A stretch of 64,000 nucleotides of DNA from an uncultured delta proteobacterium (GCA_963832165.1 CAWHTE010000003.1:224001-288000), one strand, 5' to 3'; counted from the first letter of the stretch, positions 23,803 to 57,784 are shown. Notes: generated from the letters alone by a model not told the origin. Translations and numbers: made by a program.

Positions 23803-24827
23803 TCACCGGCCGAGCAGCCCGGGCGGGACGATGCCGCTCGGTCGCGGGTTCCACACGTCGAGGAATTCGATCACCACCACTGCTGCGTTGTCCGCGGCCA
23901 GCTGCTGATAGATCAAGAACTGGACCGGGAAACCGATCAGCGCCGACGCGAAGATCGGATCGCCGCCGCCATCCGAGACGGCGCGGAACGCGATGAACGG
24001 GATGTTGTTGGCGGCCGCGATGCGCGCGACGGCCGCCGTCTCCATGTCGACCACGACGGGATCGCCCGTGGGCGGGGGCGGTGCAGCGAAGTAGGTGAGC
24101 ATGTCCAGGTAGAACTGCGGATCGAGGAATGGCTGGACACCCGACACCAGGCCCAGGAGGTCCGGCACGGTCGAGCGGGGCACCACACGCTTCGCAGCCG
24201 AGGATGTTCGGACCCGACGTGACGCACGGAACGGCGCGGCCGTTGAACGGGTCCGCGGACTGAGCCAGGCCGCCGATGATCACCTGCGGGTCGGTCTCGA
24301 CGCGCACGGGCGTGTAGGGCAGTGCGGAGTCGAGGCCCGATGCAGGCGACGTCCTCGACGGGCAGGTACGCGTTGAGCGGAACGTCGGTGAGCGTCGACG
24401 CGACGGCAAACAGGTTGGGGTCCACGGGGTAGACGCTCGACTCGACCGACCAGCGATCGGGGACCACGACGTCGCCGATGTTCGGGCCGCCCGCGACGCC
24501 CGAGAACACGATCGCCTTCACGGTGATGCCGTGACTCTTGAGCCAGCCCAGTGCCGCCGTCGTGGTGTTCTTGGCGTCCGTGAGTCCGACGCCGGTCAGG
24601 CCGAGCACGACGCGGTGAGCGGCGATCGTGCCCGCGAAGAACCGCCGCCCGTTGAAGACGCCGATCTGGTCCTCGGGCCCGTCGACGCCCGCGGCCTCGA
24701 GCAGCACGGACTGCTCGGGCGAATACGCGGAGAGGATCAGCACGCGGTCATCGGCCGCCGCGGGTTGCGCCCACGCGACCGTCGCCATGGCCGTGCAAAG
24801 CAGAGCGCACCCGTTTATCACCTTCAT
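23803..24827 (-). CDS. Secreted MTA/SAH nucleosidase / purine phosphorylase-fold protein, two apparent +1 frameshifts (~24337, ~24185)
   Basis: Signal peptide; ILSAYSPE, TGVG, FSGVAGG..IGDVVVP, then VDMETAAVA and FRAVSD in later frames (ORFs 23937..24848, 23774..24409, 23803..24186). Confidence 0.72.
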
Positions 24828-25149
24828 CCCGATTCCTCCGGTCCGCATGGGCGAACCTGACGGCCCGTCAGATCAGGCATCTTCGGCGCGGGCACCCCCC
24901 GGTGTCAACGGCGCGATGCTTCGGGATACGAACTAGGCCGATTCCGCGGTGTGCTTGCCTGGGGCCGGGCGTTGATTCGCCGCGTCGGCGTTGTGGCTCC
25001 GTCGGCGTGCACGACGGTGCACCGGAGCACAACGGTTGCCGGCTCGGAGACGCATATGCTCCAGGATCACCAACGCCTCCGGCGGCGAATTCAAGCGCCC
25101 GGCCTAGGCCATTGGGAGGTGCACGCTTCCAGGGCGTACGAGTTCGAGT

Positions 25150-25341
25150 GCCGGGGTGGTTGGCTTGCTGCGGCGAAATAAAGCGGAGCCGGCCACGGGC
25201 CGTCGCAGGGCTCGTGGCACCTTGGGTTGGACCGGCAACCTGAAAGCCTGAAGCCATCGCTGGCTTCGGACCCTTCGGGCGAGAGAGAACGTCACCCCCA
25301 GGCCGGCGAGCCATGAGCCGCAGCAAGCCAACCACCCCGGC
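25150..25341 (+). ncRNA. Candidate structured non-coding RNA of unknown family
   Basis: Perfect 25-bp terminal inverted repeat, several internal stems with G-U pairs on the + strand, C(UUCG)G tetraloop; intergenic. Confidence 0.6.
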
Positions 25342-25386
25342 CGCACGAAACGATGAGGAGATCAACCGCTCCGCACGACAACGACG

Positions 25387-27012
<1,626 letters not shown>

Positions 27013-27134
27013 GGGGGACCCCTGGTGGTCGCTGCGCAACAGCGGCGAGTAAGCTACCGCAAGTCTCAAGCTGGCAGCGCGGTATGCCGATTCGACCGAA
27101 ATCGAATCGCACGGGAGAATTCGGAGCCCGCTCG

Positions 27135-52211: not shown

Positions 52212-52272
52212 GGCGCTCCCAACGGGAATCGCTTCGAGCGGCGCGAAGCGCTGGCGCTCCCAACGGGAATCG
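52212..52272. repeat. 20-bp direct repeat duplicating the tRNA-Glu 3' end
   Basis: GGCGCTCCCAACGGGAATCG at 52212-52231 and 52253-52272. Confidence 0.9.
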
Positions 52273-52327
52273 AACCCGTGTCTCAGCCTTGAGAGGGCTG
52301 CGTCCTAGACCGCTAGACGATGGGAGC
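52252..52327 (-). tRNA. tRNA-Glu (CTC)
   Basis: GCTCCCA/TGGGAGC acceptor stem, CAGCC-CTCTCAA-GGCTG anticodon arm, GGTTCGATTCC, encoded CCA; 76 nt. Confidence 0.96.
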
Positions 52328-57710: not shown

Positions 57711-57784
57711 TCCCCGGTCGTCTAACGGCAGGACAGCAGGCTCTGAACCTGTGAATCGAGGTTCAAATCCTCGCCGGGGATCCA
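57711..57784 (+). tRNA. tRNA-Gln (CTG)
   Basis: TCCCCGG/CCGGGGA acceptor stem, GCAGG-CTCTGAA-CCTGT anticodon arm, GGTTCAAATCC, CCA. Confidence 0.95.

What the first reader, a model, noticed from the sequence alone, without database searches (positions are those of the whole stretch)
25150..25341. Unassigned 192-nt structured element closed by a perfect 25-bp inverted repeat (candidate novel ncRNA)
Seen: GCCGGGGTGGTTGGCTTGCTGCGGC (25150-25174) is exactly complementary to 25317-25341. Inside are stems 25188-94/25301-07, 25193-201/25209-17 and 25248-56/25261-69, a CCC-UUCG-GGG hairpin (25271-79) and an A-rich segment (GAAATAAAG). 25184-93 can alternatively pair with 25259-68, so two folds are possible. 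G-U pairs and the UUCG loop work on the + strand, opposite to both flanking genes, suggesting a stand-alone transcript. I could not match it to tmRNA, RNase P, SRP or a common riboswitch. Inferred alternatives: an atypical 6S RNA (size and closing stem fit, branched interior does not), an orphan retron-like msr/msd (long a1/a2-like arms with a G right after the 5' arm, but no RT in the window), or a new family.
Basis: partly seen in the sequence, partly recalled or inferred. Interest (0 to 1): 0.8.

Follow-up and report, generated by a model that had tools for sequence, protein, structure and literature searches.

The report
Multicopy hairpin repeat, not lone RNA
The 192-base hairpin is real, but it is one of eleven near-identical copies of a dispersed repeat that belongs to an uncatalogued family of structured intergenic hairpin elements found in many genomes of one order of Myxococcota.

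Summary
The perfect 25-bp inverted repeat (25150-25174 / 25317-25341) is there and folds far better than shuffles. It is not a stand-alone RNA gene. The genome holds 11 copies at 96-100% identity, each the right-hand module of a ~410-nt composite repeat (window ~24940-25349), plus older relics. Relatives carry a shorter (~125 nt) version. It has a 24-35 bp closing stem of free but complementary sequence, an invariant asymmetric core (5' GAARUMAAGCGSAG / 3' CGAGCCAUKM), helix P2 and an apical insert of variable length. A covariance model finds it in 57 of 151 genomes of the same order, often in many copies, and in none of about 127 other genomes of the phylum. Rfam has no match. Stems covary strongly, and G.U outnumbers A.C 157:22 on the + strand. 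No target-site duplications, no parent IS, no RT and no TnpB were found, and there is no association with two HUH transposase families. Elements sit at gene 3' ends, avoid promoter regions, lie antisense to flanking genes (14:2) and form only head-to-head pairs (25:0). Best reading: a new REP/MITE-like, strand-specific hairpin repeat family whose propagating factor is unknown. 6S RNA and retron readings are not supported. Transcription is untested.

The parts
24940..25349 (+). Whole composite repeat unit as shared by the genome's copies (ragged ends)
   Evidence: Alignment of 11 copies with flanks. BLAST of the left part. 8 copies match positions 2-410 at 94-96%, and 3 copies match only from position 143 on.
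24963..25104 (+). Left module ('hairpin-1'): long hairpin GGCCGGGCG...CGCCCGGCC. It has two sequence variants in the genome (A in 8 copies, B in 3) with compensated stems. Its 3' part (25075-25097) resembles the 5' arm plus core of the 192-nt module.
   Evidence: Direct repeat D1 25075-25097 / 25163-25185 at 78%. A generic long-hairpin match was found here (mir-B6, E 1.4, far below gathering).
25105..25149 (+). Spacer conserved between copies (..TTCACGCTTCCAGGGCGTACGAGTTCGAGT). A GAGTTC hexamer is expanded in 3 copies.
   Evidence: 10 matches with at most 5 mismatches.
25150..25174 (+). P1, 5' arm of the closing stem
   Evidence: In the family, P1 is 24-35 bp, with free sequence but complementary arms.
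25175..25188 (+). Conserved 5' core GAAATAAAGCGGAG (family consensus GAARUMAAGCGSAG). On the - strand it reads as a U-rich tract, CUCCGCUUUAUUUC.
   Evidence: Column frequencies in alignment A5 are 80 of 80 at most positions. The CM hits in the order were found without the pattern and show the same core.
25188..25194 (+). P2, 5' strand (GCCGGCC)
   Evidence: Pairs with 25301-25307. 5 of 7 pairs of this helix have changes on both sides.
25195..25300 (+). Apical region, variable in length and sequence in the family. It is about 40 nt longer here than in typical members.
   Evidence: Element lengths run from 53-55 nt to 166 nt between the 12-nt arm ends.
25301..25307 (+). P2, 3' strand (GGCCGGC)
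25307..25316 (+). Conserved 3' core CGAGCCATGA (family consensus CGAGCCAUKM)
25317..25341 (+). P1, 3' arm of the closing stem
25342..25356 (+). Right tail CGCACGAAACGATGA, shared to different lengths by the copies (ragged end)
25390..27069 (-). Upstream gene in the sense of transcription (AMP-binding enzyme). Its stop lies about 48 nt from the element's 3' arm, and the element is antisense to it.
23940..24827 (-). Downstream gene (PNP_UDP_1 family). Its start lies about 113 nt from the left end of the composite.

Best explanation
The element is a copy of a dispersed, non-coding hairpin repeat. SHOWN: it is not a unique gene. It is present 11 times at 96-100% identity in this genome, as the right module of a ~410-nt composite, and it belongs to a family restricted, in the genomes searched, to one order of Myxococcota. 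The family plan is a long closing stem whose sequence is free but whose arms stay complementary, an invariant asymmetric internal-loop core, a short covarying helix P2, and an apical region that can be almost absent or exceed 100 nt. Copies lie in 3' intergenic space, mostly between convergent genes and almost never in divergent (promoter) regions. They are oriented antisense to the flanking genes, with the element's 3' end toward the nearby stop codon, and two copies together are always head to head. Wobble pairs favour one strand, which is the window's + strand. INFERRED: the family persists and spreads as a non-autonomous element, REP/REPIN- or MITE-like. Its functional form is a single strand (ssDNA or RNA) of defined polarity, folded into the hairpin. 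The conserved core is the docking site of a trans-acting protein that is still unknown, and the stem only has to pair. Only lineages that keep the hairpin propagate, which would explain compensated but very different stems. In this genome the high identity, the ragged ends on both sides and the A/B mosaic of the left module suggest a recent burst, or homogenisation by gene conversion between copies. The orientation rule reflects either oriented insertion behind gene ends or selection. The - strand of the core reads as a GC-rich stem followed by UUKAYUUC, so it could act as a terminator for the upstream gene.
For: Copy number: 11 full copies at 96-100% identity plus one diverged copy and two truncated ones. 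Conservation extends to ~410 nt. Family: CM R1, built from 7 sequences, hits 57 of 151 genomes of the order and 29 of 65 genera, with many copies per genome (at most 23 candidates were scored per genome). In the phylum sample it hits 7 of 23 same-order genomes and 0 of about 127 others. Structure: 91.8% of cells are paired against 64.1% in shuffles (0 of 500), the covariation score is 0.473 against 0.103, and slid controls give 0.05-0.10. All 11 P1 pairs and 5 of 7 P2 pairs change on both sides. Strand: in 24-nt arms of 161 of 163 unique elements, symmetric scoring gives WC 3452, G.U-type 157, A.C-type 22 and transversions 217. By helix, P1 is 30:9, H4 13:7, H5 19:2 and P2 14:12. Context: of 82 elements with both neighbours called, 55 are convergent, 24 co-directional and 3 divergent. 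Single elements between co-directional genes are 14 antisense to 2 sense, and 24 of 30 flanking ORFs were confirmed by Pfam. The window copy is antisense. Adjacent pairs in unselected loci are 25 head-to-head, 0 tail-to-tail and 2 tandem. Presence and absence at orthologous sites: G001, G002 and G004 carry an element where this genome's flanks lie 5-65 nt apart. Non-coding: lengths are not multiples of three and interiors are unrelated.
Against: No mobilising enzyme was found. The genome has no multicopy IS with these ends, no RVT_1 and no TnpB domain. A 230-aa HUH/Y1 family has 12 loci here and occurs in 40 of 151 genomes, but it overlaps the 57 element-positive genomes in 15 where 15.1 are expected, and the copy-rich genomes lack it. 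The classical RAYT is in 2 of 151 genomes. No gene family recurs beside the elements. There are no target-site duplications beyond chance: lengths 0/1/2/3 were seen 80/25/21/4 times against 92.9/17.9/14.1/4.0 expected, n=130. No clean empty site with exact ends could be defined. Orientation does not follow GC skew in this genome (5 same, 6 opposite), which gives no support for IS200/IS605-type lagging-strand targeting. Stems that differ greatly between copies of one MAG yet stay paired could equally mean selection at each locus, that is, a host function. Copies are related by descent, so the counts are not independent. The pattern scan fixed parts of the core, and the gene calls rest on a GC-frame heuristic. 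MAGs often miss repeats, so 57 of 151 is a lower bound and absences are soft.
Confidence: 0.6

Rival explanations
1. It is a family of functional RNAs kept by the host at each locus. The + strand would be made as a small antisense or stand-alone RNA, or the element would act in cis in transcripts as a terminator, insulator or stability hairpin between genes: in one direction through the long P1 hairpin, in the other through the core stem plus U-rich tract. Multicopy status would then be a by-product of duplication.
For: Covariation is strong and the G.U over A.C excess lies on one strand (157:22). Stems of different copies within one MAG differ greatly but stay paired. Elements are placed 17-70 nt behind stop codons, avoid promoter regions (3 of 82), and follow a strict orientation rule (14:2:0). 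On the - strand the core reads CUSCGC followed by UUKAYUUC, with 4-6 U in 153 of 158 elements.
Against: There is no promoter-like site at the window copy and no conserved promoter upstream in the family. The strand favoured by wobble pairs is antisense to the transcripts that certainly cross the element. In partial - strand transcripts, the base before the U tract is paired in the MFE in only 88 of 158, and pairs with the expected core partner in 4. Distribution is patchy within genera and families, and 11 near-identical copies look like a burst, not eleven ancient genes.
Confidence: 0.25
2. It is an ordinary MITE: a deletion derivative of a DDE-type insertion sequence, moved as double-stranded DNA by a transposase that binds the terminal inverted repeats.
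For: It has perfect 25-bp terminal inverted repeats, small size, no coding capacity, many copies and an intergenic location.
Against: The terminal repeats are the least conserved part of the family, while the subterminal core, which is asymmetric, is invariant. There are no target-site duplications. No parent IS or other multicopy IS is present in the genome. The strand asymmetry of wobble pairs is not expected for dsDNA recognition. In this genome the repeat unit runs beyond the inverted repeat on both sides, with ragged ends.
Confidence: 0.08
3. It is an atypical 6S RNA or an orphan retron msr/msd.
For: It has a long closing stem and a size near 190 nt. A G follows the 5' arm directly (25175). 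Myxobacteria are known for retrons (my recollection, not from a call).
Against: There is no RF00013 match in the window or the genome. There are 11 copies. Family members of 53-55 nt exist, and there is no large central bubble. No RVT_1 was found in the genome and no RT lies next to any of 143 loci.
Confidence: 0.02

Closest known systems
REP / REPIN elements with RAYT transposases (PMC3116915 and PMC3337134: search listing and abstracts only)
   Same: Both are extragenic and hairpin-forming, with high copy number, lineage-restricted long-lived families, inverted doublets and no target-site duplications. Both are thought to act as single-stranded hairpins.
   Different: REPs are 20-40 nt with a GTAG or CGTC tag, whereas this unit is ~125 nt (192 nt here) with an asymmetric conserved core and a variable apical insert. 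It shows no association with RAYT (2 of 151) or with a second HUH family. This genome has a separate classical GTAG-type REP of its own.
ERIC and Correia/NEMIS small palindromic repeats of enterobacteria and Neisseria (recalled; no paper read)
   Same: Both are ~125-155-nt imperfect palindromes in intergenic space, with length variants from internal insertions or deletions and orientation-dependent effects when transcribed.
   Different: Those families have conserved terminal repeats and a TA duplication. Here the termini are free in sequence, the subterminal core is conserved, and no duplication is seen.
Lineage-specific multicopy hairpin motifs catalogued in Rfam from comparative genomics (such as the Rhizobiales-2 or Solibacter-1 type motifs; names recalled)
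   Same: Both are covarying hairpins, present in many copies, restricted to one lineage and of unknown function.
   Different: No Rfam 15 model matches the window copy or typical members. The only sub-threshold hits are generic long hairpins on the 53-nt form.
Integron attC sites (recalled)
   Same: Both have a conserved base region with unpaired bases, a variable terminal structure of 3 to more than 100 nt, and strand-specific folding of one strand.
   Different: attC has its conserved R boxes at the very base, lies in cassette arrays next to an integrase, and has no long free-sequence stem below. These elements are scattered behind ordinary genes.
6S RNA (RF00013) and retron msr/msd
   Same: The window copy shares the long closing stem and the size.
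   Different: See the membership tests: no model match, many copies, no RT, and very short family members.

Membership tests
6S RNA (RF00013) | Match to the covariance model, with closing stem, large central bubble and terminal stem | tested here: not met
   No hit at gathering score or at E<=10. There is no RF00013 hit anywhere in the genome. The MFE has a branched interior and no central bubble.
6S RNA (RF00013) | One or two copies per genome | tested here: not met
   11 copies at 96-100% identity.
Retron msr/msd | Reverse transcriptase gene directly downstream | tested here: not met
   The downstream sequence is the 3' end of an AMP-binding enzyme gene on the other strand. No RVT_1 match was found in the genome, which is 89% complete. 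No RT occurs among the neighbours of 143 loci.
Retron msr/msd | a1/a2 inverted repeats with a G next to the 5' arm | tested here: met
   25-bp arms, with G at 25175. This feature alone is not specific.
MITE | Small, non-coding, many copies | tested here: met
MITE | Terminal inverted repeats conserved within the family and shared with a parent IS | tested here: not met
   Arms differ freely between copies while the core is fixed. No parent IS exists in the genome.
MITE | Target-site duplication | tested here: not met
   Flank comparison of 130 unique elements gives the chance distribution. None is visible at the 11 copies.
REP/REPIN-RAYT | Extragenic hairpins, often as inverted doublets | tested here: met
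   All 11 copies are intergenic. There are 25 head-to-head pairs.
REP/REPIN-RAYT | 20-40-nt unit with a GTAG or CGTC tag | tested here: not met
   The unit is 53-166 nt between arm ends. The core GAARUMAAGCGSAG holds GTAG only in some members.
REP/REPIN-RAYT | Co-occurrence with a cognate RAYT/HUH gene | tested here: not met
   RAYT is in 2 of 151 genomes. The HUH-230 family overlaps in 15 genomes against 15.1 expected.
Intrinsic terminator (- strand reading) | GC-rich hairpin directly followed by a U tract, co-oriented with the upstream gene | tested here: inconclusive
   A U-rich 8-mer with 4-6 U occurs in 153 of 158 elements, and orientation fits 14:2. The expected closing helix is the MFE partner in only 4 of 158 partial transcripts. 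The simple scan finds no such site at the window copy.
IS200/IS605-type ssDNA element (incl. TnpB omega-RNA) | TnpA/TnpB present, with strand bias relative to replication | tested here: not met
   No TnpB domain. HUH genes are not associated and their flanks carry other hairpins. Orientation against GC skew is 5:6 (n=11, low power).

The most novel reading that the evidence does not exclude
The family is a new class of non-autonomous element. It would be copied through a folded single strand of fixed polarity by an enzyme that is not a RAYT, an IS200-type HUH protein, a reverse transcriptase or TnpB. The enzyme would read only the asymmetric core and insert the hairpin in one orientation just behind gene ends. 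There the opposite strand supplies a terminator-like stem plus U tract, making it a self-spreading 'gene-end cassette'.
Probability: 0.2. Interest if true: 0.7.

Novelty: new variant of a known kind. Interest (0 to 1): 0.45.

Why it matters
It removes a tempting false lead: this is not a unique novel ncRNA, an odd 6S RNA or an orphan retron. In its place stands a concrete, testable object. The family is order-wide and uncatalogued, with a sharply defined conserved core, heavy covariation, a strand preference and an unusually strict placement rule (gene 3' ends, antisense, head-to-head only). No known kind of mobilising gene is attached to it. It gives annotators of Myxococcota MAGs a repeat to mask or model, because it seeds spurious ORFs such as 25104-25346 on the - strand. 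It also offers a handle for asking how transposase-less hairpin repeats persist and whether they double as gene-end signals in high-GC bacteria.

Tried and rejected
Rfam: nothing relevant for the window copy or for eight typical loci. Only sub-threshold miRNA-precursor and mraW hits appeared, on the 53-nt form.

Coding: the - strand ORF 25104-25346 and a conserved 'ATGGCTCG' start were considered and rejected. Element lengths are not in frame, interiors are unrelated, and third-position GC is low (my reading).

Enclosed genes: the genes between 1.1-1.4 kb head-to-head pairs are ordinary secreted proteins by my reading of their translations, not transposases.

Spacers: the spacers of pairs are not tRNA-like and are not conserved.

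Sigma-54 and sigma-70 promoter readings of the conserved 5' flank did not hold by eye, and the scan found none at the window copy.

Empty site for the window copy: the orthologous intergenic regions in G004, G005 and G006 are too diverged for exact ends.

Sequencing runs: 20 of 24 listed runs hold small shares of the stretch. Soil DNA contigs carry the repeat. X2 covers 24955-25165 and 25179-25339, and an X1 contig joins the left module to the flank of another copy. RNA-library contigs of X20 lay only on 24956-25054, at about 92% identity, and none lay on the 192-nt module. This says nothing either way about transcription.

Viral contigs: 1 pattern match in IMG/VR, taken as chance.

K-turn, GNRA-receptor, group II domain 5, attC and Xer/dif readings of the core were considered from memory and dropped, because the majority variant (UUC rather than UGA) or the architecture does not fit.

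Literature: three full-text searches and term look-ups in PMC6006769 and PMC3733652 found no description of such a repeat in myxobacteria. The motif strings hit only unrelated primers.

Earlier findings of this scan: nothing was returned.

Full report
**Observation**

The sequence is as described. Arms 25150-25174 and 25317-25341 are 25 nt long, 100% complementary and 142 nt apart. The + strand folds at -121.8 kcal/mol (z = -9.38, 0 of 200 shuffles as good). The - strand folds at -117.8 kcal/mol (z = -7.69). Both neighbours are on the - strand: an AMP-binding enzyme at 25390-27069 and a PNP_UDP_1 protein at 23940-24827. Rfam 15 gives only two tRNAs elsewhere in the window at gathering score. 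Around the element at E<=10 it gives nothing meaningful. The two weak rows are a generic hairpin match on 24963-25104 and a structure-less lncRNA model.

**It is a repeat**

A search of the window's own genome (5.54 Mb, 11 contigs, 89% complete) returns 11 full-length copies at 96-100% identity, on six contigs and both strands. It also returns relics:
- a diverged shorter copy at C4:168439-168572;
- truncated 5' pieces at C7:751287-751395 and C5:38877-38928.

Aligning the copies with their flanks shows that conservation does not stop at the inverted repeat. It runs about 210 nt to the left and 8-15 nt to the right (CGCACGAAACGAT...). The left extension consists of a second long hairpin at 24963-25104 and a 45-nt spacer. 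Both ends are ragged.

Eight copies share the whole ~410 nt at 94-96%. Three copies share it only from position 143 (window 25082) onward and carry a different left hairpin. That variant has a different interior and compensated stem, but the same ends. All 11 copies are intergenic. No direct repeat flanks the 192-nt module.

**A family in relatives**

DNA search in 40 relatives found only short matches (6 of 41 genomes including this one). Reading those loci showed the same architecture with different stems.

An alignment of seven versions (A2) and its RNAalifold consensus gave covariance model R1 (127 positions, 27 pairs). R1 hits:
- 57 of 151 genomes sampled from the same order;
- 29 of 65 genera;
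- by family: f1 15/35, f10 15/34, f12 17/33, f7 3/17, f4 1/14, f6 2/2, f8 2/3, f5 1/1.

In a sample of the phylum, hits at E<=1e-4 fall only in same-order genomes: 7 of 23 plus this genome. None fall in the other ~127 genomes.

Most are from MAGs labelled Myxococcota, Myxococcales or Deltaproteobacteria. A few hits under other labels have non-complementary arms and are chance matches (L062, L104, L165). The same pattern occurs once in 2.9 million viral contigs. Rfam has no model for typical members either.

**Anatomy of the family**

- P1 is a closing stem, usually 24-35 bp. Its sequence differs widely between copies, even within one MAG, but the two arms stay complementary.
- The 5' core is G-A-A-R-U-M-A-A-G-C-G-S-A-G and the 3' core is C-G-A-G-C-C-A-U-K-M. 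Most positions are 80 of 80 in A5. Part of that invariance was imposed by the pattern used to collect loci. However, the 30 loci found by the model alone show it too.
- GAA pairs with UUC (63 of 80), or faces UGA.
- GCGC(A)G pairs with CGAGC, with one G.A and a bulged A.
- P2 follows.
- The apical part ranges from a triloop (53-55-nt elements L045, L052) to more than 100 nt.

The window copy, at 166 nt between the 12-nt arm ends, is the longest class. One subfamily (29 unique members) also has conserved flanks outside the hairpin: 5' (T)CAGCACCCARGCGAG and 3' CGNCTTGTGAG.

**Structure statistics**

On 81 model-aligned sequences (80 distinct):

| Measure | Observed | Control |
|---|---|---|
| Cells forming a standard pair | 91.8% | 64.1% after shuffling (0 of 500 reach it) |
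| Covariation score | 0.473 | 0.103 shuffled |
| Covariation score, partner slid by 1-3 columns | (0.473) | 0.05-0.10 |

All 11 P1 pairs and 5 of 7 P2 pairs show changes on both sides. The alignment is fitted to the model and the copies are related. Two ends bound by one protein would also co-vary. So this does not by itself prove an RNA.

More telling is the polarity test. I aligned each 24-nt 5' arm to the reverse complement of its 3' arm with symmetric scoring, using the 161 of 163 unique elements that had at least 14 WC pairs. The counts are 3452 WC, 157 G.U-type, 22 A.C-type and 217 transversions. By helix the G.U to A.C counts are P1 30:9, H4 13:7, H5 19:2 and P2 14:12. A single strand of the element's own polarity, the window's + strand, is therefore what has to fold. 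This cannot separate RNA from ssDNA.

**Placement**

Genes were called with a GC-frame heuristic, and 24 of 30 tested ORFs were confirmed by Pfam on the predicted strand. Of 82 elements with both neighbours called, 55 lie between convergent genes, 24 between co-directional genes and 3 between divergent genes.

Among single elements between co-directional genes, leaving out loci that hold pairs, 14 are antisense to the genes and 2 are sense. The window copy is one of the 14. In convergent regions a single element is nearer to the gene it opposes in 14 of 22 cases. The median distance is 36.5 nt to that gene against 68.5 nt to the other.

Where two elements are adjacent, in loci not chosen for that, 25 pairs are head to head (5' ends facing, spacers 39-304 nt), none is tail to tail and 2 are tandem. 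The spacers are neither conserved nor tRNA-like. So each element sits just behind a gene's stop, with its 3' end toward that gene.

**Search for the engine**

- The genome has no multicopy IS. Self-comparison finds mostly two-copy segments.
- No autonomous element carries the core motifs.
- No RVT_1 match was found.
- No TnpB domain was found.
- The genome has 12 Y1_Tnp-like loci: eleven paralogues of a ~230-aa HUH protein and one classical RAYT.
- The paralogues' flanks carry other hairpins.
- Across the same 151 genomes, that HUH family is in 40 and overlaps the 57 element-positive genomes in 15, where 15.1 are expected. The copy-rich genomes G016, G029, G039, G084, G112, G150 and G108 lack it.
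- The RAYT is in 2 of 151 genomes.
- Flanking ORFs of 143 loci cluster into no recurrent family beyond SDRs and orthologous loci.
- Genes enclosed by widely spaced pairs are ordinary secreted proteins.
- Target-site duplications are at chance level.
- Orientation against local GC skew in this genome is 5 same to 6 opposite.

**Presence and absence**

Three loci that carry an element in same-genus genomes have orthologous flanks in this genome lying 5, 56 and 65 nt apart, against 276, 334 and 134 nt in the carriers. The alignments show three things:
- In G001 the element lies between two co-directional genes and is again antisense. It carries a partial second copy of the 3' core.
- In G004 a truncated relative of this genome's subfamily lies directly after a hairpin plus T tract.
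- At the G002 site this genome holds a short relic resembling the 3' core.

Exact ends could not be read at this divergence (~80-88% in the flanks). The window copy's own site is also too diverged in G004, G005 and G006.

**Terminator idea**

Read on the - strand, the 5' core becomes CUSCGC followed by UUKAYUUC, with 4-6 U in 153 of 158 elements. That is a GC-rich stem base followed by a U-rich tract, co-oriented with the upstream gene in the favoured orientation.

Folding - strand transcripts up to that tract gives weak support. The last bases are paired in 88 of 158, and with the expected core partner in only 4. The simple scan sees no such terminator at the window copy. I keep this as an inference that would explain the orientation rule, not as a finding.

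**Transcription**

Public runs hold only small shares of the stretch. Soil DNA contigs carry the repeat. The two RNA-library runs gave no contig on the 192-nt module. That is no evidence either way.

**Verdict**

The thing is a member of a dispersed, order-restricted hairpin repeat family, not a lone ncRNA, a 6S RNA or a retron.

Shown:
- copy number and family distribution;
- the conserved core and compensated stems;
- the strand polarity of wobble pairs;
- placement and orientation rules;
- lack of duplications and of the usual mobilising genes.

Inferred:
- propagation as a non-autonomous element through a folded single strand, read at the core by an unknown factor;
- recent burst or gene conversion in this genome;
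- a possible terminator role of the opposite strand.

In three full-text searches I found no description of the family. I cannot exclude one in journals outside the library.

Noticed in passing
genome-wide, e.g. G000:C11:536517, C6:51731; remnant possibly at window 24932-24942: A separate classical REP-like repeat, GTAGGGCGGATTAGCCCGAAGGGCGTAATCCGCC, has 18 exact and 56 near (at most 2 mismatches) copies of its first 17 nt. It lies directly left of several copies of the composite repeat, at the same junction.
   Followed up: partly
G000:C4:535324-535848 (-): A single classical RAYT-type HUH gene (175 aa). Only 2 of 151 sampled genomes of the order have it, so it is probably a recent arrival together with the GTAG REPs.
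   Followed up: partly
G000: C11:917879-918553, C11:62776-63444, C11:229610-230278, C3:43936-44604, C6:7437-8003 and six more: Eleven paralogues of a ~230-aa HUH/Y1 (IS200-like) protein at 54-87% identity. Each has a conserved TTGAC...TATATT-like upstream box and its own flanking GGGAAGG...CCCTCC hairpins. The family is in 40 of 151 genomes of the order, and many copies elsewhere carry one in-frame stop.
   Followed up: partly
window 24963-25104; solo copies at G000:C8:~24150-24466 (-), C4:329822-330037, C4:306937: The left hairpin module exists in two variants with different interiors but compensated stems. It also occurs without the 192-nt module. At C4:329822 the 192-nt module is reduced to a short hairpin made of the outer arm parts.
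   Followed up: partly
window 25139-25149 and the same place in copies C3:443311, C11:884965, C11:536767: The hexamer GAGTTC just before the 5' arm is expanded by one unit in three copies. A soil contig shows the same 5-nt insertion.
   Followed up: no
whole genome G000: No 6S RNA (RF00013) match was found in the genome. Either the model or filter misses the local 6S, or it lies in the missing 11%.
   Followed up: no
L179 (G016:C223:3396-3827): Three tandem copies of the family element have a 153-nt period. The 3' arm of each is cut short and followed by the same 14 nt.
   Followed up: no
window 52255-52327 (-) and 57711-57781 (+): Two tRNA genes, the only Rfam gathering-score matches in the window.
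   Followed up: no
L094, L118 (pattern-scan loci): Family-like elements with well-paired arms also occur in low-GC, AT-rich contexts: a groundwater 'Deltaproteobacteria' MAG and a 'Gammaproteobacteria'-labelled MAG. The family may therefore be wider than the high-GC order sampled, or the bins may be mislabelled.
   Followed up: no
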